A program made the translations under genes and the position numbers. From Cyanobium sp. (GTDB lineage: Bacteria > Cyanobacteriota > Cyanobacteriia > PCC-6307 > Cyanobiaceae): a stretch of DNA of 64,000 nt. A model generated the notes under the pieces. It searched no databases, was not told the origin of the DNA, and saw only the letters and a program-made list of their open reading frames with translations. Shown here in pieces: positions 478 through 56,904 of the stretch (its first letter is position 1; every line of letters starts with the position of its first letter). The stretch lies in assembly GCA_044233545.1 (NCBI GenBank), contig JBIIJV010000001.1:3263-67262 (forward strand). Reading direction: 5' to 3'.

Positions 478-536
478 TTTAGGTGCCGCAGCAGTGGGGG
501 GAGTGAAAAAAAGGTCTCATCGGGCAGTCATCCTTA

Positions 537-560
537 ACCATCGGACCATCGGACCATCGG
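537..560. repeat. Perfect 8-bp tandem repeat (accatcgg x3)
   Basis: Read directly: accatcgg accatcgg accatcgg, in a non-coding AT-rich leader. Confidence 0.9.
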
Positions 561-982
561 GTGATCCAGATGTTGCTGATCACAAATTTGACCCCAGGGA
601 GGGGCCCGTTCTACTGCTTCCAAGAAACCTGCTGTTATGAGCGAGCCAATGAACTCGCTCCGGAACCTCCGCTCTAGCTGTCGCCCGGCTTGAGGCCCTT
701 CCGGAGCCAGTCTCCTGAAATGATTTCCCTATCCCGGCTACAGCGGGGTGGAGTGCTGGGGGAATTGAACTTCTTCCTGGGGACGCCAATAATTCGAAGT
801 GGGTCGCAGCCAATTCTGCAATTCTCTATGTAAACTATCCACGCTCACAATGGCGTGAGCATTATAAGAACGTGAATAGCCTGAGCAAAAAGACTTTGAA
901 CTCAGTAAAGACTCCCAAACCAAGCAGTTGCGTAAATCAAATGCGCTTGATTAATGATGAATCTTAGGCTGAAAAACGATTG

Positions 983-1264
983 CTAAGATAATGGATTATT
1001 CGGTATCATCGGCACTCTCGAACAAGATTGTAAAAATTCAGGATTGTTAACAGTGTTTAACCAAGAGAAACTCGTTGAATTGCTCGACAGATCAAATAAA
1101 GCTACTGGACGCATGCATCGGCCATTAACACATCTTTGCCTGGGAGGGCAATCACGGTCGGTTGTGCAGGCTGCTGCAGCCAGAGGAATTGAGAATACTA
1201 TAATAAAAATGGAGCATACTGCACAAATTGCACTGACTACTTGAGACAGTTTGAGTTGAGACAT
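983..1264 (-). CDS. Hypothetical small secreted Cys-rich peptide (93 aa from internal ATG at 1264)
   Basis: Hydrophobic N-terminus (VVSAICAVCSIFIIVFSIPLAAAA) followed by CTTDRDCPPRQRCVNGRC. Lies in the AT-rich region, divergent from the TPS gene. Could be spurious. Confidence 0.25.
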   Translation of the reverse strand: MSQLKLSQVVSAICAVCSIFIIVFSIPLAAAACTTDRDCPPRQRCVNGRCMRPVALFDLSSNSTSFSWLNTVNNPEFLQSCSRVPMIPNNPLS

Positions 1265-1428
1265 AATGTTTACCCAAAAGTGTTGACATGAAATTTTTAC
1301 TCTATTCCTCAGTAGATCTCGAATTTGGTCACAAATCTTAATAATAATCGCGGGATGTCTCCCCAGTCTCGCTATTTGTCTCAACTTGGCATGATAGACT
1401 TGGAAAAATTTAAGAATCTTCCTAGCAA

Positions 1429-4400
1429 ATGAAAATTCTAAAGTTACTTAGCTTATCAATCCATATTTCAGCTTTTTTTGTTATTCATTTATCTGAATTT
1501 GCCTCAGCGCAGGTAGTCCCTGGTGGGTTTAAATCCCGCGTCAATGGTAGTGCTTTTGGTGCTTGTACCTCAGGAAATTGCGCCATAAGTGGAGGCAGTA
1601 AATCGGGCAAGAACCTGTTGCACAGATTCAACTATTTTGATACACGAAACGGAGTTACCAAAATCAAGCTCGAAACCCAAGAGCTTAATAATATTATTGT
1701 GGGCGTAACGAGTGGCTCAGGGACCTTCCTCAATAAGCCCTTGACTTTGTCTTCCCCCGCTAATTTGTTCTGGTTATCACCGGGCGGGATTTGGGTGGGA
1801 AATGGTGCCATGCTGGGCAATGTGAATAACTTACTGTTGACCACGGCAATAGGCATGAAAATAGGCGGTAACACTTTTGATATTTTTAAAACGAAAATTG
1901 GTGATGTCCATTCCTTCCGTCAATCGCCCGATATCAATTTCGGTGAGCTGCGAAGCCCTGGGGCAAACGTTTCCAGCTTGGGTTTACTCGGCAAAGGCCC
2001 CATCCAGTTTGAGGGCGGGCAGATCACAGTTGATCGCAATCTGCTCGTCAACGCAACGGCTGGAAATTTAAGCACTGTGCCTGGTCACGGTACCCAACTC
2101 CACGCTGGAAGCAGTGTTTGGCTCAGTGGCCATCATATCGATCTCCAAGATGTCACCATCTCGGCGGGTAAGCCAGGCCGATGGGGTTTGGTGAACGTGG
2201 TGGGCGTGCCTTTTCAAGACCTAACACAACAAAGTTCCATTCGGCTAGATGGGGCCCTCTTGAAAGGTCAACAATTATGGATGTCTGCGGGTGCAATTTC
2301 GTTGAATAAGAGCAGCCTAGAAGCACCAAAGGGATGGATTCAACTCATTGCCAACGACGCATCGGATCCAACCAAAAGCCTGACGATTTCCCAGTCAGTC
2401 CTCGATGTTTCCGCCTACGACCTTAAGGATCTTAATGCGCCAGCTCTCAAGAACGACTCACTGCAGAATGACCTAGAAGGGAAAATGCCTGCGCGGCTTA
2501 GCTACCCTAGAATTGGTTTGCTCTCAAAAGGTAATATTAATCTGTCCCAAAATACACTGCTTAATGCTTCTTTAGATATTTCAACAATACAAGCGAATTC
2601 ATCTGTAGACCCAAAATTTGATATTAATTCTCTGGCTGACCGTAGTGGGCTAATCTTGTTAAGGGCAGAAGGAAAAATCGAACAAAATTCAAGTACGGTT
2701 TCCGCTGATGCGAGCGACAACAAGGCTGGTCGAATTTATTTTCAAGCTAATGGCACCAATGCCGCAGGTGGAATTTACCTGTATGATTCAAAAATTTATG
2801 CCAGATATGGGGCTGGAGATGGCGAAATTTCTTTACAAAGTGCTGGCGGAATTAGCCTTAACGACGCAATCATTGATGTTTCCGCAAATCGCCATCCGAT
2901 CATCGATGGTGAATCGTACGGTACAGTAGATTCTGAGATTAGGCCTTATATATTCCGGGCTGGTAAAATTTCCCTATTAAATACTTCAATTACCAATTCA
3001 ATTGAAATCACTAACCGTTCTAGCCTGATTGCTCGTCAAGACACGTCAGCAGGCGGTCTGAAAAGTCCACTTTTGGGCTACAGACATGATAAATATACTT
3101 CACGTTATGGGACTTTTGGTATAGAAGATAGCTTTTCAGTTGGGACTTCCCCCTCAACTATAAGTAGAATCAGGCTTGCGTCCGACGGTGGTTTGGAGAT
3201 TAATAATTCAAGTTTAGACGTATCAAGTGGAGAATTTCCCTACGAGAATACCGCTGGTATAATCAGCATTTTGGATAGAAGCGGTTCTGGCATCAACATC
3301 AGGCAATCATCTCTTCGCGCTTTGGCTGGAACTCCACGAAATTCTTTAAGTAAAGATATAGAATCAGGCCAAATCTATGTAACAGCCAAGGGCGCGATTA
3401 ACATTATTTCTTCTTCATTTCTTGCTACTAATTACAACGCTTCGGATATAATAGAAATTGCTCGAATTAATTTTTCTGCATATCCACTTATTGCCATTTA
3501 TTCTGAAACTGGTACGTTGGCTCTCCGACATAGCACCCTGGAAGCAAACTATATCAAAGAGCCTTATTCTTCATCCATTGAGCTCATTGGTAACAATCTA
3601 TTTCCAAAGCCAATTATCAATGAGCAGACATCATTTGATCCACCCTTGCTGCCATTCAACGCTGTCGGTTTGAGCATAGGTGAAATTGTGGAATTTCGCA
3701 TTAATGAGGCAAAAGAAAGGTTCTCGACAATCGCGAATGCCTATGGCATCACCCAACTAAATAACTATGAAGATAAAAATTTAATCCTTTCCCCTGGGCA
3801 AGTCCTGACTGCAAACCCCATACAACTCCATCACTCTCTGCCATCTAGCAATTTCCAATCGGTCTCGATTGCTATCGATCAAAACAGCGCTAGCTCCCAG
3901 TTCCTGGAGTCCCAGAATCGCACCCTGATCCAAACGACTAAGGCCTTGGGACTCCCGTCAGGTTCGGGCAAACTGCGCAGCATTGCTGAGCTGCAGCAAC
4001 GATTAACCCTGGCCAGCAAACTCGCCCCTTCCCTGGATCTTTCAGCTCTACCAAAGCTCTCACTTGCGGCGAACGAATCCCAGGCTAAGTCCATCAATAC
4101 CAATCCCCGTCCCTATACCCCCGCCATTGTGCATCTGCAACGCGATGACGAAGCCTCCGGCCAAACCCGCCTCACCGCCATTTTGCTCACGGCTCAGGGT
4201 GAACCAATCAGCCGCAGCATCAAGGTGGCTCGGGCCGATCTTGATGGCTGGATCAAGGGCTTTCAGCGCCAACTCAGCCGCCGTTCTCTCCAGCCCGATC
4301 CCACTAAAGATCCCGGCGAGCCCCTAGCCAAGGCCCTGATCAGCCCCCTGCTGCCCCTGCTGCGCGCCCAGAACGTCACGTCCCTGTTGCTGGAGGTGGA

Positions 4401-5226
4401 CCGGGGGCTGCAGGCCGTTCCCTATGCCGCCCTACCGGTGGAGGGTCGGCCGCTCGGCGACCTTTTTGCGCTCACCATCACGCCATCACTGGGGCTGATT
4501 GAGCTAGATCCCGGCCAGCGGGCCCTCCGGGGCCAAATGCTGTTAGCAGGGGCCAGCCAATTCAGCAATGGCCTCGCCCCCCTGCCCATGGTGCGGCAGG
4601 AGCTGCAGGCCCTGGCCCAGGAGCATCCCTCCCAATTGCTGCTGGATGACAGCTTCACCCCCACAGCCCTGATCGACCAGGCCCTAGGCAGCCAAGTCAA
4701 CCAACTCCACATCGCCACTCACGCCAATTTCCTGCCCGGCCAAACCGGCGTTCTATACACCCCCAACACCACCTTGAGCCTGGCGGACCTGGGCCGTCGC
4801 CTGCGCTCCCGCAACAGCAGCTACCCCCTGGATCTGATCAGCATGAGTGCTTGTCTCACCGCCCTTGGCGATGAGAAAAGCGAGTTGGGTTTCGTGGGCA
4901 TGGCCCTCCAGGCCGGGGCCCGCAGCGGCCTCGGCACCCTCTGGGAGGTGGATGACACCGCCACCGCCGCCTTCTTCATCGAGCTCTATCGCTTCCTCAA
5001 GGTCGGATTGACCAAAGATCAGGCGCTGCAGGCCACCCAGCAGGTCTTCCGGAGTGGCCAAGTGCGGCTCCAGGGCGATCGCCTGGTGGGACCGGACCCG
5101 CGCACCGGCCAGGCCCAATCCACCTTGGTGGCAGGCCTTTCCCGGCAAGAGCAGATCCTTTTCGCCCAAGGGCTCAACCATCCTTACTATTGGGCAGGAA
5201 TGATCCTTACCGGAAGTCCCTGGTAA
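1429..5226 (+). CDS. Two-partner-secretion exoprotein (TpsA-like): filamentous-hemagglutinin N-terminal (TPS) domain, repeat-rich middle, C-terminal CHAT (caspase-like protease) domain
   Basis: 1265-aa ORF with a signal-like N-terminus. TPS-type motifs: NLLHRFNYFD, IIVGVTSGSGTF, NLFWLSPGGIWVGNGA. Ser/Asn/Ile-rich repeats in the middle. The C-terminus carries a CHAT-like His (LHIATHANF) and Cys (ISMSACLTALG). Confidence 0.85.
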   Translation: MKILKLLSLSIHISAFFVIHLSEFASAQVVPGGFKSRVNGSAFGACTSGNCAISGGSKSGKNLLHRFNYFDTRNGVTKIKLETQELNNIIVGVTSGSGTFLNKPLTLSSPANLFWLSPGGIWVGNGAMLGNVNNLLLTTAIGMKIGGNTFDIFKTKIGDVHSFRQSPDINFGELRSPGANVSSLGLLGKGPIQFEGGQITVDRNLLVNATAGNLSTVPGHGTQLHAGSSVWLSGHHIDLQDVTISAGKPGRWGLVNVVGVPFQDLTQQSSIRLDGALLKGQQLWMSAGAISLNKSSLEAPKGWIQLIANDASDPTKSLTISQSVLDVSAYDLKDLNAPALKNDSLQNDLEGKMPARLSYPRIGLLSKGNINLSQNTLLNASLDISTIQANSSVDPKFDINSLADRSGLILLRAEGKIEQNSSTVSADASDNKAGRIYFQANGTNAAGGIYLYDSKIYARYGAGDGEISLQSAGGISLNDAIIDVSANRHPIIDGESYGTVDSEIRPYIFRAGKISLLNTSITNSIEITNRSSLIARQDTSAGGLKSPLLGYRHDKYTSRYGTFGIEDSFSVGTSPSTISRIRLASDGGLEINNSSLDVSSGEFPYENTAGIISILDRSGSGINIRQSSLRALAGTPRNSLSKDIESGQIYVTAKGAINIISSSFLATNYNASDIIEIARINFSAYPLIAIYSETGTLALRHSTLEANYIKEPYSSSIELIGNNLFPKPIINEQTSFDPPLLPFNAVGLSIGEIVEFRINEAKERFSTIANAYGITQLNNYEDKNLILSPGQVLTANPIQLHHSLPSSNFQSVSIAIDQNSASSQFLESQNRTLIQTTKALGLPSGSGKLRSIAELQQRLTLASKLAPSLDLSALPKLSLAANESQAKSINTNPRPYTPAIVHLQRDDEASGQTRLTAILLTAQGEPISRSIKVARADLDGWIKGFQRQLSRRSLQPDPTKDPGEPLAKALISPLLPLLRAQNVTSLLLEVDRGLQAVPYAALPVEGRPLGDLFALTITPSLGLIELDPGQRALRGQMLLAGASQFSNGLAPLPMVRQELQALAQEHPSQLLLDDSFTPTALIDQALGSQVNQLHIATHANFLPGQTGVLYTPNTTLSLADLGRRLRSRNSSYPLDLISMSACLTALGDEKSELGFVGMALQAGARSGLGTLWEVDDTATAAFFIELYRFLKVGLTKDQALQATQQVFRSGQVRLQGDRLVGPDPRTGQAQSTLVAGLSRQEQILFAQGLNHPYYWAGMILTGSPW

Positions 5227-5262
5227 TAATTCCGGTGGCCACCTCGCGCCTATTTTTACCGA

Positions 5263-6927
5263 ATGTTTCCCTTGCTGGCCCAGTTGGTGGCGCCGCCTCT
5301 GCAGCCAGGGCCCATTCGCTTGCCGGGGGCCGATCAGCAGCGATCTCTTCCAGTTGCGCCCGCCCCATCCGCCCCATCCGGGCCCCAGGCGCCAGCCCCT
5401 GTCCAGCCAGCCGCGCCTGGCCCCACCGCCAGCCAGCCGCCCCTGCGGGGCTTCAATCCCTACAGCGCCGCTGAGCTGTCGCGGATCCTGGCCGACTGCA
5501 GCAGCAACAGCAACACCAGTCAGGAGGCCCGCCTCAACCTCTGTGCCACGGCCCTGGGTTCCAGGCTGTTCGCCGATGGCTACATCAACAGCCGCGTCAT
5601 CCCCCAGCCAAACCCACCACCCGGTGCACTGGAAGTGGTGCCCGGCAAAATCGAAGCGATTCAGGTCGTCAGCTCCAGCCCACGGCTGCAGCGGCGCCTG
5701 TTGCGGCTGCTGAAGCCCATACAGGGCAGCGTGCTGCACCTACCAACCTTGACGGCCCAGCTCACCCGGATTCAGCAGCTACCCGGCGTCGGCCTGCTCA
5801 AAACAAACCTCAACCGCATCGGTGAGGACTCCAACCGCGCCCAGCTGTTGATCACGGTGGAGCCCGGCCATGACCCCCTGCGGGGTGAACTGGCCCTGCG
5901 CAATGACGGCAACGGCGGCAGCGGCCAGTTTCGGGGCCTGGCCACCTTGGTCAAGGAACGGGCCCTGGTCAACGGCGACACCCTGCTGCTGTTCGGCGAA
6001 ATCAACACCGATTCCAACCCCGAAATCGGCTCCCTCAACGGCTCGCTCAGCTACTCCCTGCCCCTGCTCGATCAGCTCAACCTGACCACCGCCCTCGGGG
6101 TCAGCCGCCGTACCTTGGTGGAGGCGCCACCGCCACTGAACGACCTCAGCTTTCGCCAACTGCAGCTGTTCAGCCAGCTGGAGTACACCCTGCACGAATC
6201 GCTCAGCGATCGCCTGACTGCCTTCGCCGGTTTGAGCGTCAACCGCAACGACGCCTTCCTCAGCGGCGCCAGCATCCCCGCCATCGTCGGGGGTGGGGAT
6301 GCCGGCTGGTTACGCACCGGCTTCGCGCGCATCGGTCTGGCCTACGACCGATCCACGGGCCCCTTGGCCTTTAACGCCAACCTTTATGGCCTGCAGGGCA
6401 TCGGCGCCTGGTCCACCGTCGCCCAACGGCAGGAGCTGCAATTTCTGGGCATCGAGCCGGATCAAGCCCGGGCCCTGGGATCCCAACTCGCCGCCTCCTG
6501 GTGGCTGGCCCCCCGCTGGCAACTCACCCTGCGGGCCGCTGGCCAGTTGGCCTTCAATCCCCTCACCAACCCCATGGGCTTCAGCCTCGGCAGTGACAAT
6601 GGTCTGAGGGGCCTGCCGGGGCAGGTGCTGAGCGGCGACAGTGGTCTGCTAGGCACCATCGACCTGGCCTGGTTGCTGTGGCGGGGTCGCCAGGACGCTC
6701 TCCAGCTGGTGCCGTTCATCGGCAATGGCCAGGTGTGGACCGAGGTGCAGGGCGCCACGATCAGCGATAGCGCTGGAGCCGGTGGCTTGCTGCTGCGCTG
6801 GATCCGGGGCCGGCATGGCGAGTTGGAATTGGGCTGGGTCAGGCAGTTCCAGAGTGGCTCTAGGGCCTACTGGGACCAATGGATCCTCGGCAACGGCTGC
6901 TACACAAAACTGGTATTTCGTTTCTAA
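5263..6927 (+). CDS. ShlB/FhaC/HecB-family outer-membrane transporter (TpsB) with POTRA region
   Basis: 554 aa with a Pro-rich N-terminus. POTRA-like segment (ALEVVPGKIEAIQVV...LTAQLTRIQQLPGV), beta-strand-rich remainder, terminal ...KLVFRF (C-terminal Phe typical of OM barrels). Lies directly downstream of the TpsA-like gene. Confidence 0.85.
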   Translation: MFPLLAQLVAPPLQPGPIRLPGADQQRSLPVAPAPSAPSGPQAPAPVQPAAPGPTASQPPLRGFNPYSAAELSRILADCSSNSNTSQEARLNLCATALGSRLFADGYINSRVIPQPNPPPGALEVVPGKIEAIQVVSSSPRLQRRLLRLLKPIQGSVLHLPTLTAQLTRIQQLPGVGLLKTNLNRIGEDSNRAQLLITVEPGHDPLRGELALRNDGNGGSGQFRGLATLVKERALVNGDTLLLFGEINTDSNPEIGSLNGSLSYSLPLLDQLNLTTALGVSRRTLVEAPPPLNDLSFRQLQLFSQLEYTLHESLSDRLTAFAGLSVNRNDAFLSGASIPAIVGGGDAGWLRTGFARIGLAYDRSTGPLAFNANLYGLQGIGAWSTVAQRQELQFLGIEPDQARALGSQLAASWWLAPRWQLTLRAAGQLAFNPLTNPMGFSLGSDNGLRGLPGQVLSGDSGLLGTIDLAWLLWRGRQDALQLVPFIGNGQVWTEVQGATISDSAGAGGLLLRWIRGRHGELELGWVRQFQSGSRAYWDQWILGNGCYTKLVFRF

Positions 6928-9176
6928 TGGCCCGTTCGTCGCCCGCCACCGGCCCCCATCCAAAAGGGATTCTGCGGCAGGGGATGACTCGGCAAGGGAT
7001 TGTGCGGCAACTGGGTCCATACCTCGCCGCATTTGGTTTGTTGCTGCTGCTGCGCCAGAGCCAACTCAGTGAACAGCTCAACCTGCTCGCCTACGACCTG
7101 GCGGTGCAGCTCCGGCCCCTGCCCTCCGGGGCCTCCACCCGCGTGCGCATCATCGGCATCGACGAGGACGATCTCAAGCGCTATGGACCGATGGTGTCTG
7201 ATGGGCTACTCGCCGATGCGATCGAACGGCTGGATCGGATCGGCGTGCGGGCCATCGGGCTGGATCTGTTCTGCGGTCAGCCGGTCGGTGCCGGCGGGGC
7301 ACGGCTGCGCCGGCTGGCCGCCAGTAACCCCCGCTTGGTGTCCGCCTACTTCGATCTTGATGGCAAGCGGGCGATCCCCGGCACTCCGCCCCATCGCCAG
7401 GGCTATGCCGATCTCTACACCGATCCGCAGGATGGGCTGGTGCGCCGTGATCTGCTGCACGTCGTCGGCATAGATCAAGCCAGCAAAGCCTCCCTGCCGA
7501 TGCGCTTGCTGCAGATCGCCAAGGGGCAGAGGCAGCTGCCATACAAGTTGAAGCAACAGCCACAGCTGGCGGACCTGGGCGAGGGGGCGGGGGGGTACCT
7601 GCCGGAGAGCCCTGTCACTGATGACAACTATCTGCAGCGCATGCTCGCTTTCCACCAGCCGGGCAGCTTCCCCCAATGGAGCCTGGGCCGCTTGCTGCGC
7701 AACCAGCTAAGCCCGCAGCAGATCCAGCAACTGCGCGGCAGCATCGTGCTGATCGGCGTGGTGGCCCCCTCCAGCAAGGACAGTTTCCCGGTGCCCTTCA
7801 GCAGGGGCCGGGCGGGCGATCAGCGCTTTGAAATCCCCGGCGTCGAAATTCACGCCCACCGGCTTGCCGCCCTGTTGGCGCTGGAGCGCGGCCAGCCCTT
7901 GGGAATTCAGGCCGCGTCGGGCTCGGTGAATCGCTGGCTGCTGCTGCTCGCCCTCGCGGTTGGCATCGTCGCCGGCGAACGGGTGCCAGGGCTGCGGCGC
8001 AGTCTCTGGGTGGTGGCATCGGGCCTTGTGCTGGCGGTGGCGGCGACTGCGGCTTTGCTGGCGCTGGGGGTGTGGCTGGATGCGGCCCTGCCCTTGGCGG
8101 CCTTCAGCCTGATGGCGGCCGCGGCTTGGTTGCGCCGCGGTGCCAACCAGCAAATCAAGGGAAAGGTATTGGAGCTCCAGAACAGGCATGTGCGCAGCCA
8201 GTTCGATCGGTTTGTTTCCAAAGCCGTGGCCGGTGAATTGTTGGACAACAGCCAGGCCAGCCAGACTAGCCAGGCAGCCAGTGAGCTTCGCACTGTCACC
8301 GTATTGATGAGCGACCTGCGGGGCTTCAGCCTGCTGGGACAGGACAACCCTCCGGCCCTGATTGTGCAGCTACTTAATAATTATCTCGATGAGATGTTTC
8401 AAGTCATCGAGCATTATGGCGGCACGATTGACGAAGTCTTAGGGGATGCCATCCTCGTGCTCTTCGGCGCGCCCCTGGTACGTGCTGACCATGCCGAGGC
8501 CGCCATCGCCTGCGCCCTGGCCATGCAGATCGCCATGGAAAAGGTGAATCAAATCAATGTCCAACAGGGGCTGCCAGCGCTGGAGATGGGAATTGGCTTG
8601 TGCACGGGTGACGTGATCGCCGGCACGATCGGCTCCAGGCAGCGGGCCAAGTACGGCGTGGTGGGACCAGCTGTGAACCTGGCCGCCCGCATTGAATCCC
8701 TGAGCGTGGGCGGCGAGGTGCTGGCGGCGGAATCAACGGTTCGGGCCACGGCCGTGCCGCTGCGCATCGATGCCGATCACACTGTGGCGGTGAAGGGATC
8801 CCAAGAGCTCCTGCGGGTCCTCACGATCGGGGCCATCCAGGGCAGGCACAACCTCGCCTTGCCCCTCATCAGCTCACAGCCCCAGGTTCTGCTACAGCCC
8901 CTGGCAGTTCGATACCTCATCTTGAAGGGCAAACAGCGGCAAGGTTCAGCGCAGCCCGCCGTTGTCACCCACCTGAGCGAACGGGAAGCCTGGATCGTGT
9001 TTGAGGGAGACCAACCCGAACTGTTCGACGACCTGGTGCTGATTTTTCCAGCCAGCAGCAGCAGCGGTGAGGTGTACGGCAAGGTGCGGGAGCAGCTCAG
9101 TGGCCATTGGCGCATGGTCTTCAGCTTGATGCCGTCTGGGATTAAGGAGCAGATTGGTATGCGGGGGGCGGCGTGA
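6927..9176 (+). CDS. CHASE2 sensor domain - transmembrane - class III adenylate/guanylate cyclase, with an unassigned ~110-aa C-terminal extension
   Basis: ATG at 6927 overlaps the ShlB stop (TAATG). The ORF track starts at 6879. CHASE2-like N-terminal half (VRIIGIDEDDL..., IVLIGVVAPSSKDSF), a hydrophobic block (LLLLALAVGIVAG...), and cyclase motifs (VTVLMSDLRGFS, YGGTIDEVLGDAILVLFGAP, GLCTGDVIAGTIGS). Confidence 0.85.
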   Translation: MARSSPATGPHPKGILRQGMTRQGIVRQLGPYLAAFGLLLLLRQSQLSEQLNLLAYDLAVQLRPLPSGASTRVRIIGIDEDDLKRYGPMVSDGLLADAIERLDRIGVRAIGLDLFCGQPVGAGGARLRRLAASNPRLVSAYFDLDGKRAIPGTPPHRQGYADLYTDPQDGLVRRDLLHVVGIDQASKASLPMRLLQIAKGQRQLPYKLKQQPQLADLGEGAGGYLPESPVTDDNYLQRMLAFHQPGSFPQWSLGRLLRNQLSPQQIQQLRGSIVLIGVVAPSSKDSFPVPFSRGRAGDQRFEIPGVEIHAHRLAALLALERGQPLGIQAASGSVNRWLLLLALAVGIVAGERVPGLRRSLWVVASGLVLAVAATAALLALGVWLDAALPLAAFSLMAAAAWLRRGANQQIKGKVLELQNRHVRSQFDRFVSKAVAGELLDNSQASQTSQAASELRTVTVLMSDLRGFSLLGQDNPPALIVQLLNNYLDEMFQVIEHYGGTIDEVLGDAILVLFGAPLVRADHAEAAIACALAMQIAMEKVNQINVQQGLPALEMGIGLCTGDVIAGTIGSRQRAKYGVVGPAVNLAARIESLSVGGEVLAAESTVRATAVPLRIDADHTVAVKGSQELLRVLTIGAIQGRHNLALPLISSQPQVLLQPLAVRYLILKGKQRQGSAQPAVVTHLSEREAWIVFEGDQPELFDDLVLIFPASSSSGEVYGKVREQLSGHWRMVFSLMPSGIKEQIGMRGAA

Positions 9177-9251
9177 TTTCTGGGGAGTGCAGGGCGAGGG
9201 GTTGGGCTGTCTCAACTGCCAGCCCTGAAGCAACAGACTTGCTTTTTGAAT

Positions 9252-9905
9252 CTATTTATTCTCCAACAAATTTCCAGTAAGCTTTTCACATCCAACCGGC
9301 AGCTTGACTGGCAACTTCGCCCCATAGTCTTCAAGATTAAAAGCTGCCAACAGCGGCTTGGTGTCCACTGTCCCACCGCAGAGCTGACCCAGATCGGCGA
9401 TCAGCTTCTGGCTGGCACTCTGCTCTGGATTGCTGTCAGTCACCAGGCTGGTGCGGGTGGGGGGTTTGTTGGGCTGGCAACTGGGAAAGCTCTCCCAGGT
9501 CAAAGCTTGATTCAGGGGCGCGCCCACCGCCTGGGGCAGGGTGATCAGAGTGATGCCAACACGCTGTGCCCTCAGGGTCTGTCCAGCCACCAGCTCGCCG
9601 GCTGGCGACAACAACTGCACGGTCATGGCGGTGGGCTCGGAGGAGGGGCCTTGCAACAAGGCCAGCGTGCGGCTGCTGCCCGGATTGAAGCGGTTGCTGG
9701 GCGGCACCAGATGGGTCCAGACATTCAGACAGGTGCCTCGGGTGCCGCCGGAAGTGCGGCAGCAGATTGTTGGCTTGCCGCCCTTTGCTTGGACCGCTGG
9801 TGCGCAGCAGAAACCAAGCGCCATGGCAGCCATGGGCGCCAAGCGAAGCCAATGGCCTGGGCGAGTCAGGCGGCTGGCCTTCCACAGGGTCAAGCAGGCA
9901 GGCAT
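9252..9905 (-). CDS. DUF928-like secreted protein
   Basis: 217 aa with a signal-like MAAMALGFCCAPAVQA, followed by GGKPTICCRTSGGTRGTC. This resembles the P..GGGTRG.C signature I associate with DUF928. Convergent with the cyclase gene. The start could be 9833. Confidence 0.6.
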   Translation of the reverse strand: MPACLTLWKASRLTRPGHWLRLAPMAAMALGFCCAPAVQAKGGKPTICCRTSGGTRGTCLNVWTHLVPPSNRFNPGSSRTLALLQGPSSEPTAMTVQLLSPAGELVAGQTLRAQRVGITLITLPQAVGAPLNQALTWESFPSCQPNKPPTRTSLVTDSNPEQSASQKLIADLGQLCGGTVDTKPLLAAFNLEDYGAKLPVKLPVGCEKLTGNLLENK

Positions 9906-42440: not shown

Positions 42441-43787
42441 ATGAACGAGCCAGTGAGTTTAGGCCGCTTCAATAACATACATCCGGGTCTTGATCAAGAA
42501 GAGTCCTTGCGCATTCTGTCTTTACCAGTGGCAGAATTGGAGGCAAGCAGTGATCGCTACATGGCAGCGGCCCAATTGCTCAACTTTCCCGGCAGGCAAT
42601 CGGAACAGGCCTTGCTTCAGCTGCTCGCAGAGGTAGACGAAACGCAAGCAACCCAAATCGCCAAACGCAAAGCCGTGGAGGTGCTGGCACGCCTTGGTTG
42701 CAGAGATGCGATTAAGAGCATTGGCATGTGCCTGATCAGTGACGACCATTACTTGGTGGAGAATGCAGCTTGGGCCTTACACCAGTTGGGCTGCCAGGAT
42801 CAAGGGATCATCAATCAGATGGTGGCTTTATTGGCAGACTGCCGTCAGAATCGTCGTGTGCTCATTCAGAGCTTGGCCGGCCTAAGGGTTGAGCAAGCAC
42901 TTCCTGAGATCAGCGCTCTCCAGGATGATGATAGGCCAGGAGTTCGTGGGGCAGCTATCGCCGCCGTGGTTACCCTGGCCGGATCAAGAGATCGAATCTT
43001 GAGCCTTGGCGAACAGCTTTTTCTGCCGAATCAGATGGACCGGCAGTCGGCTATTCAGGATGTGATTGATGCTGGCGCACAAGAGCTGCTTGAGGAGATT
43101 ATGCGCACACCTGTTTCGCCGGTGTTTCGGATGCGGGCGGTGCGTCTGCTCTGGCCCGAGGCGCAGCCGCTATGCAACGGACTATCGCTCTTGGACACAC
43201 TTGATTCGCTGCTATTGGACAGCCCTGAGAGCCTTCAGCTTGTCCATAGCTATGGCGAAAAGCAGGAAAATTTGTTTTTAATTAATGAGTTTTTTGGTAC
43301 GGATTTTAGTCGCTGCTATCTTGCACTACAAACGCTTGCCTGCGAGGCAGGCGAGCACCTATGGCCTCTGCTCGAGCAGCGTTGGCTGGAAGAGGCCCAC
43401 AATGACTATGGAGCTCACTATTTTTTTATTCGCTTATTTGCCATGGTGGCAAACTGGGGACCCGAAAAGACTAAGGTCGAAAATCATTGCGAAGATGCCA
43501 TCTTCAACCGTCGACCCCAGTTTACCAAGTCACGCCCCGCAGCTATTTTGGCCCTATTACGTCTTCAGCCCGAACGATTAAATGCTCTTATTCCTCAACT
43601 GCTGGATCCTGTAGTGGAGTCGAACTGGGAATGCCGCTATGCGTCATGGATGGCGGTTGCCCAGATGATCACAAAGGGACTGTCCATTGGCACTCAACAC
43701 GTGCATCTGCTTATCGAGACTAATGATCCAAGCACTTTTGTCGAGAGCAAGAAACGGCAAGTGGCTGGGTTACTCACTGATTTCTGA
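42441..43787 (+). CDS. cpeY: Large HEAT-repeat PE lyase, CpeY-like
   Basis: 448 aa with multiple HEAT-like repeats (RKAVEVLARLG, VENAAWALHQLG, PGVRGAAIAAV, FRMRAVRLLW). Size fits CpeY/MpeY. Lower GC than the backbone. Confidence 0.7.
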   Translation: MNEPVSLGRFNNIHPGLDQEESLRILSLPVAELEASSDRYMAAAQLLNFPGRQSEQALLQLLAEVDETQATQIAKRKAVEVLARLGCRDAIKSIGMCLISDDHYLVENAAWALHQLGCQDQGIINQMVALLADCRQNRRVLIQSLAGLRVEQALPEISALQDDDRPGVRGAAIAAVVTLAGSRDRILSLGEQLFLPNQMDRQSAIQDVIDAGAQELLEEIMRTPVSPVFRMRAVRLLWPEAQPLCNGLSLLDTLDSLLLDSPESLQLVHSYGEKQENLFLINEFFGTDFSRCYLALQTLACEAGEHLWPLLEQRWLEEAHNDYGAHYFFIRLFAMVANWGPEKTKVENHCEDAIFNRRPQFTKSRPAAILALLRLQPERLNALIPQLLDPVVESNWECRYASWMAVAQMITKGLSIGTQHVHLLIETNDPSTFVESKKRQVAGLLTDF

Positions 43788-44081
43788 AAATCGTGTCTTT
43801 GTGCTTCCATTGCTTGCCCAGTAGCTCACGATCGCGTGAGCGCCAGGTCGTGGAACCTTTGCCAAAGCACGTAGGATCTTAAACTTGCGGTTTGGCCCTA
43901 TCGGCCAGGCGCCTACTTCTCGTATTGAGATGATCTCACCCCCAAACGAAAGCAGACATTGTTCGAAGCGCTCGATCAGAGTTTGATCAACTGTCTCAAA
44001 GATAAAGTCAGTCCCACGGCAGATTAGATGCTGCGATCGAATCCAGCTTTCCATCTGTCTTTGCGGACTCTTTGCAGCCAC
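43770..44081 (-). CDS. cpeR: Phycoerythrin operon activator CpeR
   Basis: WIRSQHLICRGTDFIFETVD..LIERFE..LLSFGGEI resembles the CpeR signature (WIRS.HLIC.G..F.FET) as I recall it. Last gene of a cpeS-cpeT-cpeR string. Confidence 0.7.
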   Translation of the reverse strand: MAAKSPQRQMESWIRSQHLICRGTDFIFETVDQTLIERFEQCLLSFGGEIISIREVGAWPIGPNRKFKILRALAKVPRPGAHAIVSYWASNGSTKTRFSEISE

Positions 44082-44086
44082 CTTAC

Positions 44087-44707
44087 TCAGCTGATCTCAT
44101 GATCATTATGGAGCCAGGCTTCATCGAGATGGTCGCCATAGCGATGTGATCGGATAAAGCGTAGGGGGCCATACTCAGCTCCCCAGAGATAGGCATGTGT
44201 ACTTGGGTCAAAGCCGCGATCACGGCTCATCCAGTGAGACTCGCCAAAGTCTACTTCGCTAACAAGATAGGTCAGCTGACCATTTCGGGGAATCATGCAT
44301 TGACAACCCGGCTCTACTTCACCCAGGAATGAACCATCTCCCTTCTGGCGAAACACCATCGCGCAGCCTGGACGGGGCAGGAGATCCTCTGTAACGATTC
44401 CAGACAGTAATTCGGGCCGAGATCCTGCTCCTGCTGCGCGAATTCCGTTCCGAAGACCGAAGTTGAGCATCAGAAGATGATTGTCTGCAACGGTCAAATG
44501 ATGCACCCCCTGACGGTATGGACGCCAAGGATCATAATCATAACTCTGCTCAGAGTAAAACCAAGGGCCACGAAAAGTCTCCCATGCGAAGGGACGAAAG
44601 AAAATGTTAATATGGGAGAATTTGGATGGCTCCGCCTGCGCCTGTTGATGGTTGCTGAAACAGCCTGAAATAGTCTTAGCAAAATGCAATATGGATGAAG
44701 ATTCCAA
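44087..44707 (-). CDS. cpeT: T-type phycobilin lyase CpeT
   Basis: FAKTISGCFSNHQQAQAEP.KFSHINIFFRP, WFYSEQSYDYDPWRPYRQGVHHL, GEVEPGCQC. CpcT/CpeT family. Confidence 0.85.
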   Translation of the reverse strand: MESSSILHFAKTISGCFSNHQQAQAEPSKFSHINIFFRPFAWETFRGPWFYSEQSYDYDPWRPYRQGVHHLTVADNHLLMLNFGLRNGIRAAGAGSRPELLSGIVTEDLLPRPGCAMVFRQKGDGSFLGEVEPGCQCMIPRNGQLTYLVSEVDFGESHWMSRDRGFDPSTHAYLWGAEYGPLRFIRSHRYGDHLDEAWLHNDHEIS

Positions 44708-44710
44708 TGC

Positions 44711-45244
44711 TCAAGCCTCAATTTTTCTGATTTCCGAGCTGAAGGAAGTCTGTAATATGCCAGATCCCTCCGAAGTACGAAGAACGGATGATCGGCAGCG
44801 TACGTGCTCAGATAGAAACCAGATACGTTCCTCTGCCATTGATTGGCTATAGACAGTCTTGAGGATAAATGTGCCGTCATCAAGAAAGTTGTAGGATGAG
44901 ACTGCAGGCTCTGATTCTGCATAGCCTGTACTACGAAGTAGCTGCCCAGTTCGTTCGGTTTCTGCAATAGGAATCAGGATGCAGGTGCCTTGAGAAACAG
45001 GACTGGCATCATCGGGTTCCCAGTCTGACTCTGCCTGCCAAGTCATCTGGAACGGGCTGGAGATCGTGCCAGGTAGAATAGACTGCAACGCTAAATAATT
45101 CGCTACTTCTTGATTATTAATGGCCAGGCGTTCAATCTTGATCGTACTGATTACATCCTCAAATTGTCTAAAGGCCAAAGCGTGCCCAGAACGCATTGAC
45201 CGCCATTGTCCCTCTGAACGGGCAACGAACTGCTCAATGCTCAT
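44711..45244 (-). CDS. cpeS: S-type phycobilin lyase CpeS
   Basis: MSIEQFVARSEGQWRSMRSGHALAFRQFE..., ...ERIWFLSEHVRCRSSV. CpcS/CpeS family. Confidence 0.85.
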   Translation of the reverse strand: MSIEQFVARSEGQWRSMRSGHALAFRQFEDVISTIKIERLAINNQEVANYLALQSILPGTISSPFQMTWQAESDWEPDDASPVSQGTCILIPIAETERTGQLLRSTGYAESEPAVSSYNFLDDGTFILKTVYSQSMAEERIWFLSEHVRCRSSVLRTSEGSGILQTSFSSEIRKIEA

Positions 45245-45510
45245 GCAACAATTGCGGGAGTTGGGCGAGTCTATCAGTTTCGGGGCGGGCGGACTGTACC
45301 ATGTTGACTAGGCTGTGGATCATCAAATCCCTTGCCTCATTGGGGCTGGCCTTGATCACTCTGGATGGTGCTTGTGCGAATCGAGGCGTGGATTTCATTT
45401 CGGATAACGGAGATTAAGGCAATGGTGGGAAGAGCAAAGCTATTTGTCTCTAGGTCAAACGCCATTGACTGTCCCACCATAAACCAGGCTAAGAGTCAAA
45501 AGAGTGCCGA

Positions 45511-46257: not shown

Positions 46258-46317
46258 TGAGAAATCAGCAAAGGGAGAAACGAGTGTTGCGATAAGAGCA
46301 GCGAGAATAGTTTGGTC

Positions 46318-47844: not shown

Positions 47845-47946
47845 AAGATGTCTCGGAGGTGGGAGAGGGGGGTGTTGGCTTGGCGGAGGAACATGTCTCC
47901 AAACAGGTTTGATTGTTCTTAGTGTCGATCAGCAATCATTAAATAG

Positions 47947-48822: not shown

Positions 48823-49037
48823 GGTAATGCATTCCTGGAGTTACTCATGGATCATCTTATGAGATCGAGCTAATTCCACAGCAGTTTAACAAAGCGCAAT
48901 CCTGACCTTGCCTGGCTGGCTGGAGGCTCTGTACGCACCACCCTGCCTATTGCTGCAAGCTCATAGTGGCTGAATTATTATTTTGCATGCGGCATGGGCA
49001 GCAGCACCTACCGCGCCCATTGGAATTCCCAGAGTTC

Positions 49038-50958: not shown

Positions 50959-51064
50959 GATATCTGGATGGTTGATTTGTGCTTGGTTAATGGCATCGGC
51001 TTTGTATTTATCGACTTAGGCTGACTTGCTGATGCTTGAGCTATAAATGGCGTACCCAATGAGT

Positions 51065-51664: not shown

Positions 51665-51668
51665 GGGA

Positions 51669-52280: not shown

Positions 52281-52321
52281 TGTTCAATCGTAGAAGGTAG
52301 TTTATTAATGCGAATCCCATT

Positions 52322-56831: not shown

Positions 56832-56904
56832 TGCCAGGACCCAGATTTGAACTGGGGACACGGCGATTTTCAATCGCCTGCTCTACCAACTGAGCTATCC
56901 CGGC
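56832..56904 (-). tRNA. tRNA-Phe (anticodon GAA), no encoded CCA
   Basis: Minus strand: GCCGGGATAGCTCAGTTGGTAGAGCAGGCGATTGAAAATCGCCGTGTCCCCAGTTCAAATCTGGGTCCTGGCA. Cloverleaf arms pair, anticodon loop TTGAAAA, T-loop GTTCAAATC. Confidence 0.9.

What the first reader, a model, noticed from the sequence alone, without database searches (positions are those of the whole stretch)
1429..9905. Four-gene envelope module: TPS-exported CHAT protease-like protein, ShlB-type transporter, CHASE2 nucleotidyl cyclase and DUF928-like secreted protein
Seen in sequence:
- A 1265-aa ORF starts with a two-partner-secretion (hemagglutination-activity) domain and ends in a CHAT domain.
- The next gene is a ShlB/FhaC-type barrel with a POTRA region.
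- Its stop overlaps (TAATG) the start of a CHASE2-TM-class III cyclase.
- A DUF928-like secreted protein lies convergent immediately downstream.

Established: TpsB proteins export their cognate TpsA. CHAT is a caspase-fold protease domain. CHASE2 is an extracytoplasmic sensor domain.

Inference: the genes form one functional unit. A caspase-like protease is placed on or outside the outer membrane. An extracytoplasmic signal, possibly a cleavage product and possibly of the DUF928 protein, is sensed by CHASE2 and converted into a cNMP signal. I know of no experimental characterisation of such a unit. Of everything in the window, it is the most coherent candidate for an undescribed system.
Basis: partly seen in the sequence, partly recalled or inferred. 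Interest (0 to 1): 0.8.

Follow-up and report, generated by a model that had tools for sequence, protein, structure and literature searches.

The report
Cyanobacterial envelope protease-cyclase signalling module
Four neighbouring genes in a freshwater picocyanobacterium (Cyanobium type) stay together across dozens of species and encode an exported caspase-like protease, its outer-membrane exporter, a membrane receptor that probably makes cGMP, and a small secreted partner protein; together they look like an uncharacterised cell-surface sensing device and point to a candidate partner for the CHASE2 sensor domain, whose ligand is unknown.

Summary
g1 (1429-5226) has a Sec signal, a TPS secretion domain, a beta-helix and a CHAT protease with an intact His/Cys dyad. 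g2 is a TpsB transporter. g3 is a CHASE2-TM-class III cyclase whose start overlaps the g2 stop (TAATG). g4 is a secreted protein convergent 75 nt downstream.

Three refinements:
- g3 is a Cya2-type enzyme with the Glu/Gly pair of the Synechocystis guanylyl cyclase, so cGMP is the predicted product.
- g4 matches no Pfam model, but it is a remote DUF928 relative (profile-profile probability 90%).
- The first ~820 codons of g1 plus upstream DNA (about 500-3900) form a low-GC hypervariable cassette. It is 26-85% identical between genomes that are about 95% identical on both sides. The break lies inside the gene.

Linkage is strong. In 37 species loci with full flanks, g4 is present in 37, TpsB in 36 and CHAT in 35, in at least four gene orders. 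Whole modules are duplicated and all parts co-diverge. In filamentous cyanobacteria all 8 sampled DUF928 genes directly follow a CHASE2 gene, with a CHAT domain fused to it or nearby.

The mechanism is inferred, not shown. I found no experimental work. It is a new variant built from known parts.

The parts
500..3900 (.). Low-GC hypervariable cassette. It covers the upstream region, a small Cys-rich ORF, and the signal peptide, TPS and beta-helix part of g1. The right-hand breakpoint lies inside g1 at about codon 823.
   Evidence: GC is about 0.36-0.55 here against about 0.65 in the flanks. GC3 is 0.32-0.47 against 0.68-0.80 in the CHAT part. Nucleotide identity to L012 is 91-98% before 500, 26-85% within, and 92-100% from 3901 to 5300. 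The same pattern appears in independent assemblies.
1429..5226 (+). g1: TpsA-type exoprotein of 1265 aa with a C-terminal CHAT protease.
1429..1509 (+). g1 Sec-type signal peptide (MKILKLLSLSIHISAFFVIHLSEFASA).
   Evidence: The only hydrophobic segment of g1 is at the N-terminus. The cleavage site is read by eye.
1510..2418 (+). g1 TPS secretion domain (beta-helix), with an ANLFWLSPGGI motif.
   Evidence: Pfam TPS at 30 bits, below cut-off. AlphaFold pLDDT 86.5. The top 21 Foldseek hits are all TpsA proteins, almost all TPS secretion domains. Invariant residues are listed.
2419..3897 (+). g1 beta-helix passenger rich in Asn, Ser, Gly and Ile; the most variable part of the gene.
   Evidence: Identity to orthologue L001 is 35-68% here against 89-98% in the C-terminal part.
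3898..4308 (+). g1 conserved linker between the passenger and CHAT.
   Evidence: Nucleotide identity is about 95-97% from 3901 onward.
4309..5217 (+). g1 CHAT domain. The catalytic His1092 is at nt 4702-4704 and Cys1142 at nt 4852-4854.
   Evidence: Pfam CHAT E 2.7e-43. The HIATHANF and SMSACLTALG motifs are present. The His and Cys columns are at least nearly invariant (>=90%) in 26 family members.
5263..6927 (+). g2: TpsB (ShlB/FhaC/CdiB-type) outer-membrane transporter. A POTRA region covers about nt 5329-5928 and the barrel starts at about nt 5842.
   Evidence: Pfam ShlB E 5.9e-12. CdiB 6WIM E 9.6e-13. The GLRGLPG motif and the C-terminal Phe are conserved.
6927..9176 (+). g3: Cya2-type receptor cyclase (alternative start at 6879). 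CHASE2 is at 7035-7967, the TM cluster at 7920-8132, the class III cyclase at 8283-8807 and the C-terminal extension at 8859-9173.
9252..9905 (-). g4: secreted 217-aa DUF928-like protein. The conserved motif CCRTSGGTRGTC is at nt 9729-9764.

Best explanation
The four genes form one envelope signalling module of freshwater picocyanobacteria (Cyanobiaceae).

Shown:
- g1 is a Sec-targeted TpsA with an N-terminal TPS domain, a beta-helix and a C-terminal CHAT domain that has an intact His/Cys dyad.
- g2 is a TpsB-family transporter encoded 36 nt downstream of g1.
- g3 is a CHASE2-TM-class III cyclase of the Cya2 type.
- g4 is a small protein with a signal-peptide-like N-terminus, remotely related to DUF928.
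- The four genes are inherited, rearranged and duplicated together.

Inferred:
1. TpsB threads the variable beta-helix of g1 to the cell surface. The strong diversification of that part suggests it is what phages, grazers or other cells meet.
2. The conserved linker and CHAT part stay associated with the periplasmic side. Precedents recalled from memory, not checked here, are the FhaB prodomain and the C-terminal half of CdiA.
3. g4 is the periplasmic partner (ligand, co-receptor or inhibitor) of the CHASE2 domain.
4. A surface event changes CHAT activity or location. This alters the g4-CHASE2 complex, possibly by cleavage at the conserved Arg of the R-x-x-C core (TRGTC in g4), and so switches the cyclase.
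5. The output in this subtype is cGMP.

The direction of information flow is the least secure step.
For: Domain identities.

Operon-like layout: a 36-nt gap between g1 and g2, and a TAATG overlap between g2 and g3.

Linkage:
- Among loci anchored on the cyclase with at least 8 kb on both sides, g4 is present in 37/37, TpsB in 36/37, CHAT in 35/37 and all three in 35/37.
- g4 lies within 1 kb of the cyclase gene in 51/53 loci.
- At least four gene orders occur.
- Paralogous whole modules sit on one contig, with 40-59% identity in every part. Distance matrices correlate at r 0.90-0.98.

Wider triad:
- All 8 DUF928 genes examined in Nostocales, Oscillatoria and Leptolyngbya lie directly downstream of a CHASE2 gene.
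- A CHAT domain is fused to the adjacent CHASE2 protein in six of them and encoded nearby in the other two.
- In Leptolyngbya a TPS protein and a TPR-CHAT protein are separate overlapping genes next to DUF928. In g1 the two are fused.

cGMP:
- g3 matches Cya2 (2W01) at E 1.5e-48 and has Glu in TIDEVLGD and Gly in KYGVVG, equal to Cya2 Glu488 and Gly562. The aligned equivalents of Asp448, Arg450, Asp492, Asn569, Arg573 and Lys608 are also conserved.
- Cya2 is GTP-specific, and a single E488K change converts it to an adenylyl cyclase.

Surface exposure of the N-terminal part only: it is hypervariable with low GC3, while the linker and CHAT are about 95% identical.

g4: the signal-peptide-like N-terminus is followed by a low-confidence segment that holds the motif, then a confident beta-sandwich. 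The Arg and Cys of the motif are conserved in both g4 and DUF928.
Against: - There are no expression, localisation or biochemical data of any kind.
- All 66 genome loci come from one family (Cyanobiaceae) and were found through similarity to g3. The counts are therefore not phylogenetically independent.
- In the filamentous-cyanobacterial systems CHAT precedes CHASE2 in the same protein, which I read as cytoplasmic, while DUF928 is read as secreted. CHAT cleaving the DUF928-type protein therefore cannot be the general logic of the triad.
- Periplasmic retention of CHAT is argued only from conservation.
- g2 lacks a canonical signal peptide in every orthologue examined, which is unexplained.
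- One gene order (ShlB, g4, cyclase) shows no CHAT gene within the flanks available.
- The Glu/Gly pair predicts GTP use, but activity was not measured. One subtype member has Glu/Ala.
- The g4-DUF928 relationship rests on one profile-profile score of 90%. Profile against a single DUF928 sequence found nothing.
Confidence: 0.45

Rival explanations
1. Reverse wiring. The CHASE2 cyclase together with g4 senses an unrelated periplasmic or environmental cue. Its cyclic nucleotide then controls expression or secretion of the TpsA-CHAT surface protein. In this reading TpsA-CHAT is the output, acting as an adhesin or exoprotease, rather than the sensor.
For: The same linkage data apply, because synteny does not give direction. 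Dore et al. 2020 (PMC7522525) place secreted CHAT proteins, cAMP-synthesis genes, CRP-type receptors and a cAMP-regulated channel in one genomic-island module.
Against: No cNMP-binding regulator was identified next to the module among the neighbouring ORFs scanned. The fused CHAT-CHASE2 proteins of filamentous cyanobacteria imply a direct functional coupling of the two domains rather than transcriptional control.
Confidence: 0.25
2. Anti-phage or anti-grazer defence. The variable surface fibre detects attack, and the cyclase produces a nucleotide alarm that activates effectors elsewhere in the genome. This would be an envelope-triggered analogue of Pycsar or CBASS-like signalling, with CHAT acting as a caspase-like executioner.
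For: The passenger is hypervariable and low in GC, as expected for a target of biotic selection. CHAT and caspase domains are common in conflict systems. The cyclase domain has generic similarity to PycC, E 7e-22.
Against: PADLOC gives no hit for g1, g2 or g4. The PycC match is much weaker than the Cya2 match (1.5e-48), so it reflects general class III homology. No effector gene is linked. The conserved part of the module sits among housekeeping genes (fabI, a phosphopantetheinyl transferase, AhpC). No tRNA, flanking repeats or mobile-element marks were found. The passenger has no phage or plasmid matches.
Confidence: 0.15
3. A contact-dependent inhibition-like toxin system. TpsB exports a TpsA whose C-terminal CHAT domain is delivered into neighbouring cells, and g4 is the immunity protein. 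The cyclase would be an unrelated neighbour.
For: The TpsA/TpsB pair carries a C-terminal enzymatic domain, as in CdiA/CdiB. g2 matches CdiB best among solved structures.
Against: The polarity of variation is the opposite of what is known of polymorphic toxins (recalled, not checked here). Here the C-terminal CHAT is the most conserved part and the N-terminal part the most variable. g4 appears to be secreted, sits beside the cyclase rather than g1, and follows CHASE2 genes even where no TPS gene was seen in the flanks examined. The cyclase is co-inherited in essentially all loci.
Confidence: 0.05
4. The intragenic GC break is an assembly chimera or a recent one-off horizontal insertion, so g1 is not a real single gene.
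For: There is a sharp GC change inside one ORF.
Against: The same uninterrupted ORF with the same break occurs in independent NCBI, ENA and JGI assemblies and in orthologues with only 50-70% identity. In one search, 13 subtype-I systems, the window's included, show GC3 of the TPS part more than 0.15 below that of CHAT.
Confidence: 0.02

Closest known systems
Cya2 (sll0646) of Synechocystis sp. PCC 6803, a CHASE2-regulated guanylyl cyclase (PDB 2W01)
   Same: Both share the CHASE2-TM-class III cyclase-C-terminal extension architecture and a similar length (749-765 against 756 aa). The cyclase domains match at E 1.5e-48. The Glu/Gly specificity pair and the catalytic residues are identical.
   Different: None of the papers read here mentions a partner protein or linked genes for Cya2, and the CHASE2 ligand is unknown. 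Here the gene is embedded in a four-gene module. I could not examine the Synechocystis locus with the collections available.
Two-partner secretion systems (FhaB/FhaC, ShlA/ShlB, HxuA/HxuB, CdiA/CdiB)
   Same: g1 has an N-terminal TPS domain followed by a beta-helix, and an adjacent Omp85-family TpsB with a POTRA region and a barrel.
   Different: The C-terminal cargo is a caspase-fold CHAT protease. The variable part is N-terminal, not C-terminal. The system is linked to a receptor cyclase and a DUF928-like protein. The TpsB has a conserved, atypical, Pro-rich N-terminus.
EACC2-caspase-CHASE2 proteins with an ECF sigma factor and DUF1822 (Kaur, Iyer, Burroughs and Aravind 2021, PMC8195603); I take these to be the sigma-DUF1822-[CHAT-CHASE2]-DUF928-[TPR-CHAT] clusters seen here in filamentous cyanobacteria
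   Same: CHASE2, a CHAT/caspase domain and a DUF928-family secreted protein are linked in the same way, and a TPS protein is sometimes adjacent.
   Different: There CHAT is fused to CHASE2, on the side I read as cytoplasmic, and the inferred output is proteolysis and a sigma factor. Here CHASE2 drives a nucleotide cyclase and CHAT is moved onto an exported TpsA. DUF928 did not turn up in my term search of that paper.
Syn_GI122 genomic-island module of marine Synechococcus/Cyanobium (Dore et al. 2020, PMC7522525)
   Same: [quoted passage not shown]
   Different: It is a one-sentence network observation. It gives no gene-level anatomy and mentions neither CHASE2 nor hemagglutinin/TPS in my term search, and it gives no function. 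Identity of that module with this one is not verified.
DUF928 (PF06051); one paper says Synechocystis sll1891 contains this domain
   Same: Both are small cyanobacterial proteins encoded beside a CHASE2 gene, and g4 at least has a signal-peptide-like N-terminus. They share the R-x-x-C, LVP, GI..LP and W....C.P motifs.
   Different: g4 and 139 cluster representatives of its family (50% identity clusters) fall outside the Pfam model. The C-terminal helical part differs.

Membership tests
TpsA (two-partner secretion exoprotein) | N-terminal Sec signal peptide | tested here: met
   The only hydrophobic segment is at aa 1-22 and is followed by ASA|Q. No dedicated signal-peptide predictor was available.
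TpsA (two-partner secretion exoprotein) | TPS secretion domain by profile HMM | tested here: inconclusive
   Pfam PF05860 scores 30.0 bits against a cut-off of 33.5. TIGR01901 scores 22.3 against 29.1. An identical database protein and most homologues carry a precomputed PF05860 hit.
TpsA (two-partner secretion exoprotein) | TPS-domain beta-helix fold | tested here: met
   The AlphaFold model has pLDDT 86.5. Its top 21 Foldseek PDB hits are all TpsA proteins, almost all TPS secretion domains, most with probability 1.00 and TM-score up to 0.61.
TpsA (two-partner secretion exoprotein) | Cognate TpsB encoded next to it | tested here: met
   g2 lies 36 nt downstream. The linkage is kept in 36/37 loci.
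TpsA (two-partner secretion exoprotein) | Actual TpsB-dependent export | not testable with these tools
   Needs secretome or surface proteomics in wild type against a g2 deletion.
TpsB / Omp85 transporter | ShlB-type beta-barrel | tested here: met
   PF03865, E 5.9e-12, 46 bits against a cut-off of 22.7.
TpsB / Omp85 transporter | Periplasmic POTRA domains | tested here: met
   Pfam POTRA_2 is sub-threshold (19.2 against 24 bits). A profile of g2 orthologues aligns positions 23-222 with CdiB 6WIM residues 24-225, E 9.6e-13.
TpsB / Omp85 transporter | N-terminal signal peptide | tested here: inconclusive
   No segment passes the hydrophobicity threshold. A conserved atypical N-terminus, M.PLLAQLVAPPLQPGPVRLP, is present in all orthologues.
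CHAT (clan CD caspase-fold peptidase) | CHAT profile match | tested here: met
   PF12770, E 2.7e-43, covering the full profile 2-289.
CHAT (clan CD caspase-fold peptidase) | Catalytic His/Cys dyad | tested here: met
   His1092 lies in HIATHANF and Cys1142 in SMSACLTALG. The corresponding columns are at least nearly invariant (>=90%) in 26 homologues.
CHAT (clan CD caspase-fold peptidase) | Proteolytic activity and substrate | not testable with these tools
   Needs an in vitro cleavage assay.
CHASE2 sensor | CHASE2 profile flanked by membrane segments | tested here: met
   PF05226, E 2.3e-42. A TM cluster lies at aa 332-402 after the domain. The weaker N-terminal hydrophobic stretch PYLAAFGLLLLL was read by eye.
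Cya2-type guanylyl cyclase (class III) | Class III catalytic domain with metal-binding Asp residues and transition-state Asn/Arg | tested here: met
   PF00211, E 3.3e-23. The alignment to 2W01 shows the equivalents of D448, D492, N569, R573 and K608 conserved.
Cya2-type guanylyl cyclase (class III) | Glu/Gly substrate-specificity pair (Cya2 E488/G562) | tested here: met
   TIDEVLGD and KYGVVG in g3 against TIDEFMGD and KYGVVG in 2W01. Of the 22 systems that carry the C-terminal extension, 19 have Glu/Gly. The other subtypes with a readable motif have Lys.
Cya2-type guanylyl cyclase (class III) | GTP preference in an enzyme assay | not testable with these tools
   Needs purified protein.
DUF928 (PF06051) | Match to the Pfam model | tested here: not met
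   No hit at E<=10 for g4 or for 25 family members, and none at E<=1 for 10 remote relatives. True DUF928 proteins score 1e-63 and 8e-31 in the same test.
DUF928 (PF06051) | Remote homology by profile-profile comparison | tested here: met
   hhalign of A1 against A3 gives probability 90.4%, E 1.4e-6, 146 columns. The comparison against a single DUF928 sequence was negative.
DUF928 (PF06051) | Gene position directly beside a CHASE2 gene | tested here: met
   g4 lies within 1 kb of the cyclase gene in 51/53 loci. DUF928 follows a CHASE2 gene in 8 of 8 loci examined.
Pycsar (PycC cyclase plus effector) | Specific PycC cyclase with an adjacent effector | tested here: not met
   Only a generic PycC hit (7e-22), weaker than the Cya2 match. 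There is no effector, and g1, g2 and g4 have no PADLOC hits.
Contact-dependent inhibition (CdiA/CdiB/CdiI) | Polymorphic C-terminal toxin with an adjacent cytoplasmic immunity gene | tested here: not met
   The C-terminal CHAT is the conserved part and the N-terminal part the variable one. The gene after g1 is the TpsB, and g4 has a signal-peptide-like N-terminus.

The most novel reading that the evidence does not exclude
DUF928-family proteins, including the divergent g4 family, are the missing periplasmic partners of CHASE2 domains throughout cyanobacteria. The CHASE2 ligand has been unknown since the domain was defined. In picocyanobacteria this receptor pair would be coupled to a TpsB-anchored, antigenically variable surface fibre that carries a caspase-like protease. 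Contact at the cell surface by a phage, grazer or neighbouring cell would then be converted by regulated proteolysis into a cGMP signal (cAMP in the paralogous subtypes). That would be a bacterial surface-contact receptor operating through a two-partner secretion protein.
Probability: 0.25. Interest if true: 0.85.

Novelty: new variant of a known kind. Interest (0 to 1): 0.68.

Why it matters
- CHASE2 is a widespread extracytoplasmic sensor domain with no known ligand (PMC10581220). A strictly neighbouring secreted protein family gives a concrete binding partner to test.
- Cya2 was the first bacterial guanylyl cyclase classified and has a solved catalytic-domain structure, yet the papers read here name neither its input signal nor a physiological role. 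This module supplies candidate upstream components in abundant freshwater picocyanobacteria.
- A TpsA that carries a conserved caspase-fold protease behind a hypervariable passenger would be a new use of two-partner secretion.
- The sharp breakpoint inside the gene is a clear example of domain-level diversification of a surface protein.
- Paralogous modules with Glu-type and Lys-type cyclases suggest parallel cGMP and cAMP channels built on one design.

Tried and rejected
- Direct Pfam and NCBIfam annotation of g4, 25 family members and 10 remote relatives: no DUF928 hit.
- hhalign of the g4 profile against a single DUF928 sequence: nothing. Only profile against profile worked.
- Exhaustive profile search with the g4 family: 139 cluster representatives found. 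Of the 10 sampled, 9 had no Pfam domain and one carried an Inositol_P domain.
- Foldseek of the g4 model against the PDB: only weak generic beta-sandwich matches (PapD, macroglobulin domains, C2), E about 4e-3. No functional lead.
- Sequence search of g1 and of its CHAT part against the PDB: nothing.
- PADLOC: only generic PycC similarity of the cyclase. The defence-system reading was not supported.
- Plasmid tblastn with full-length g3: swamped by cyclase domains of rhizobia. A repeat with CHASE2 alone gave the two useful Nostocales plasmids.
- The genome-collection scan anchored on g3 used very specific peptide patterns and returned only Cyanobiaceae. It could not test Synechocystis cya2 or other orders directly.
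- Origin of the low-GC cassette: no phage or plasmid matches, no tRNA, no flanking repeats and no Rfam element. The mobile-element and assembly-chimera explanations were rejected.
- Promoter and terminator scans were not above shuffled expectation.
- Literature searches for the combination (CHAT, CHASE2, DUF928, two-partner secretion, ShlB, Synechococcus) found no experimental study.

Full report
**1. What is in the sequence**

- g1 is 1429-5226 (+), 1265 aa.
- g2 is 5263-6927 (+), 554 aa.
- g3 runs from 6879 or 6927 to 9176 (+).
- g4 is 9252-9905 (-), 217 aa, convergent with g3 and 75 nt from its stop.
- The TAA stop of g2 (6925-6927) shares its last A with an ATG at 6927-6929, giving TAATG. 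An in-frame ATG also lies at 6879. Either start overlaps g2.

The best-matching genome loci are lake metagenome-assembled genomes labelled Cyanobium, Synechococcaceae or Cyanobacteriota. The downstream neighbours are housekeeping genes: an enoyl-ACP reductase-like short-chain dehydrogenase, a phosphopantetheinyl transferase, AhpC, a DegT aminotransferase and an M20 peptidase.

**2. Domain calls**

g1:
- CHAT is unambiguous (E 2.7e-43). His1092 and Cys1142 are in the expected motifs, and Cys1142 is the only Cys in the C-terminal 1200 residues. The corresponding columns are at least nearly invariant (>=90%) in 26 homologues.
- The TPS domain falls just below the Pfam and NCBIfam cut-offs. I tested it independently. 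A 100% identical database protein and most homologues carry a precomputed PF05860 hit.
- An AlphaFold model of residues 1-360 (pLDDT 86.5) finds only TpsA proteins among its top 21 PDB matches, almost all of them TPS secretion domains: HxuA, HpmA, FHA, EtpA and HMW1.

g2:
- It has a ShlB barrel (E 5.9e-12).
- Its N-terminal 200 residues align to the N-terminal 225 residues of CdiB, which I take to hold its POTRA domains (6WIM, E 9.6e-13).

g3:
- It combines CHASE2 (E 2.3e-42) with a class III cyclase (E 3.3e-23). A cluster of hydrophobic segments lies between the two domains.

g4:
- It has a signal-peptide-like N-terminus, six conserved cysteines and a conserved motif, TICCRxSGGTRGTC.

**3. 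g3 is a Cya2-type enzyme, so cGMP is the predicted output**

- The best solved relative is the catalytic domain of Synechocystis Cya2 (2W01, E 1.5e-48).
- Cya2 has the same CHASE2-TM-cyclase-C-terminal-extension architecture and nearly the same length.
- Its GTP specificity depends on an unusual Glu488/Gly562 pair. E488K converts it into an adenylyl cyclase.
- g3 has Glu in TIDEVLGD and Gly in KYGVVG at the aligned positions. The equivalents of Asp448, Arg450, Asp492, Asn569, Arg573 and Lys608 are conserved too.
- Across related modules, the cyclases that carry the C-terminal extension (the window's subtype) have Glu, usually with Gly. All other subtypes with a readable motif have Lys with Ala or Gly and lack the extension. 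Paralogous modules are therefore predicted to signal through different nucleotides.

**4. g4 and DUF928**

- Neither g4, nor 25 members of its family, nor 10 remote relatives match PF06051, even at permissive thresholds. By the Pfam definition g4 is not a member.
- I obtained bona fide DUF928 proteins from two Nostocales plasmids (1e-63 and 8e-31 against PF06051) and from a homology search.
- A profile of 27 of these against a profile of 26 g4-family proteins gives hhalign probability 90.4%, E 1.4e-6, over 146 columns. The alignment is colinear through the R-x-x-C, LVP, GI..LP and W....C.P motifs.
- The AlphaFold model of g4 (core pLDDT above 90) shows three parts. A low-confidence N-terminal segment holds the motif, a beta-sandwich follows, and a small helical subdomain ends the protein. 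It has no informative structural neighbour.
- 'DUF928-like' is therefore a fair description of a distinct, unannotated sister family. That family has 139 cluster representatives at 50% identity.

**5. Are the four genes a unit?**

- Gene contexts of g4 homologues at 85%, 52%, 51% and 31% identity all contain a CHASE2 cyclase and a ShlB gene. The first three also contain a CHAT gene. The surrounding genomic contexts differ.
- A scan of one genome per GTDB species, anchored on g3, gave 66 loci, all Cyanobiaceae. I annotated them with HMMs built from the window's domains.
- Of 37 loci with at least 8 kb on both sides, g4 is present in 37, TpsB in 36, CHAT in 35 and all three in 35. g4 lies within 1 kb of the cyclase gene in 51 of 53 loci.
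- At least four gene orders occur.
- Some contigs carry two complete paralogous modules, each part 40-59% identical to its counterpart. Pairwise-distance matrices of CHASE2, cyclase, g4, TpsB and CHAT correlate at r 0.90-0.98 over 47 systems.
- Caveat: the loci were found through similarity to g3 and come from one family, so they are not independent samples. Even so, retention through rearrangement and duplication en bloc is the classical signature of a functional unit.

**6. The association extends beyond picocyanobacteria in a different form**

- On Nostoc punctiforme pNPUN01 the order is WD40/TPR-CHAT, trypco2, a CHAT-CHASE2 fusion, then DUF928.
- On a Calothrix plasmid a CHASE2 cyclase is followed by a hypothetical gene, DUF928 and a TPR-CHAT gene. 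A filamentous-haemagglutinin gene lies nearby.
- In Oscillatoria, Leptolyngbya and three further loci the order is sigma factor, DUF1822, CHAT-CHASE2, DUF928, with a TPR-CHAT gene nearby and usually directly downstream.
- In Leptolyngbya a TPS protein overlaps the start of the TPR-CHAT gene. The two domains that are fused in g1 are separate neighbours there.
- All 8 DUF928 genes I examined directly follow a CHASE2 gene. They all belong to one DUF928 subfamily, so the sample is biased.
- Kaur et al. 2021 described caspase-CHASE2 proteins with an ECF sigma factor and DUF1822, and proposed stimulus-induced peptidase activation. DUF928 did not turn up in my term search of that paper.
- Hu et al. 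2017 noted the CHASE2-DUF928-WD40 cluster in Nostoc punctiforme.
- Dore et al. 2020 mention a genomic-island module with secreted CHAT proteins and adenylate cyclases in marine Synechococcus/Cyanobium.
- I found no experimental study of any version. The CHASE2 ligand was still called unknown in 2023.

**7.

- The window is about 65% GC, but roughly 800-3850 is about 43% GC.
- GC3 is 0.32-0.47 in the first 2400 nt of g1, 0.68 in the next 600 nt and 0.80 in nt 3001-3600. It is 0.72-0.83 in g2, g3, g4 and the downstream reductase gene, so this is not an amino-acid effect.
- Against the closest genome (L012), nucleotide identity is 91-98% up to position 500. It is 26-55% from 501 to 1500, 35-85% from 1501 to 3900, and 92-100% from 3901 to 5300.
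- The right-hand breakpoint is inside g1 at about codon 823, where the beta-helix ends and the linker to CHAT begins.
- The same break is present in orthologues from independent assemblies. It is confined to the Glu-type subtype. The Lys-type modules have native GC3 in their TPS regions.
- Within the cassette the TPS domain keeps its invariant residues.
- There is no tRNA nearby, no flanking repeat, no Rfam element, and no phage or plasmid similarity.
- My reading, which is an inference, is that the exported N-terminal passenger is under strong diversifying selection or allelic replacement, as expected of a surface-exposed structure. The linker and CHAT part are constrained like the rest of the module.

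**8. How it most likely works**

The roles of g1 and g2 as a TpsA/TpsB pair follow from established knowledge of two-partner secretion. The pairing of g4 with CHASE2 is inferred from strict adjacency in two divergent families. The link of CHAT to CHASE2 signalling is inferred from fusion in other cyanobacteria.

My preferred model is this:
- The variable fibre is displayed through TpsB.
- The conserved CHAT domain stays at the periplasmic face.
- A surface event alters the g4-CHASE2 complex, perhaps by cleavage at the conserved Arg.
- That change switches cGMP synthesis.

It is possible here, but it cannot be the general logic of the triad, because in the fused systems CHAT and DUF928 would sit on opposite sides of the inner membrane. 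The reverse wiring, in which the cyclase controls the surface protein, cannot be excluded. A defence role is not supported by PADLOC but remains compatible with the surface variability. A CDI-like toxin role is contradicted by the polarity of variation.

**9. Verdict**

The module combines well-known parts (TPS, CHAT, CHASE2, Cya2-type cyclase) in a configuration that has not been characterised. It also gives a testable handle on the CHASE2 ligand question.

Noticed in passing
window 983-1384 (-): A small ORF lies inside the low-GC cassette, divergent from g1. It has a hydrophobic signal-like segment followed by a Cys-rich motif (CTTDRDCPPRQRCVNGRCMRP). Matches to knottin-like modules (DUF7107, Dickkopf_N) are weak and below cut-off. 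It may be a small secreted disulfide-rich peptide, or not a gene at all.
   Followed up: partly
window 5224-5265: g1 and g2 are in the same reading frame, separated only by the g1 stop codon and 12 codons. This is probably coincidence. Read-through was not examined.
   Followed up: no
window 5263-5330; also L001, L004, L007, L010: The N-terminus of g2, M.PLLAQLVAPPLQPGPVRLP, is conserved even in a 47%-identical orthologue and is followed by a Pro-rich stretch. No canonical signal peptide is detectable for this outer-membrane protein.
   Followed up: partly
window 42441-53080: A lower-GC stretch (0.51-0.55) holds four phycobilisome linker genes, a HEAT-repeat protein, ferrochelatase and a pentapeptide-repeat protein. 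This appears to be the phycobilisome rod gene region of the genome.
   Followed up: partly
L033/L050 (contig CALSAP010000015.1); L026/L049 (contig NZ_JAHLYW010000041.1); L050 20400-21817: Single genomes carry two or more paralogous modules 15-28 kb apart. L050 shows a further g4-CHAT pair at its edge. Many loci with the gene order cyclase, g4, CHAT-TPS, ShlB also have a second cyclase-domain gene about 6 kb upstream.
   Followed up: partly
L036, L037, L038, L056: The record titles name non-cyanobacterial organisms (Bordetella parapertussis, Rhizobium sp. Q54, Candidatus Sulfopaludibacter, Tabrizicola). The loci nevertheless have the same gene order as Cyanobium gracile loci and similar identity to g3. 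The MAG names are probably wrong.
   Followed up: no
L081 11002-16187: In Leptolyngbya 'hensonii' an 829-aa TPS-domain protein overlaps the start of a TPR-CHAT gene by 4 nt, directly after DUF928. These are the unfused counterparts of the two halves of g1.
   Followed up: partly
L078 10170-10544: A 'trypco2 family protein' gene sits directly upstream of the CHAT-CHASE2 fusion gene on Nostoc punctiforme pNPUN01.
   Followed up: no
window 8859-9173: The roughly 105-aa C-terminal extension of g3 has no Pfam match. It occurs only in the Glu-type cyclases. It may correspond to the Cya2 C-terminal extension, which was reported as structurally uncharacterised and without which engineered Cya2 fusions had very low activity (PMC5995499).
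   Followed up: partly
window 56832-56904 (-): tRNA-Phe (GAA) is the only tRNA in the window. It is far from the module.
   Followed up: no
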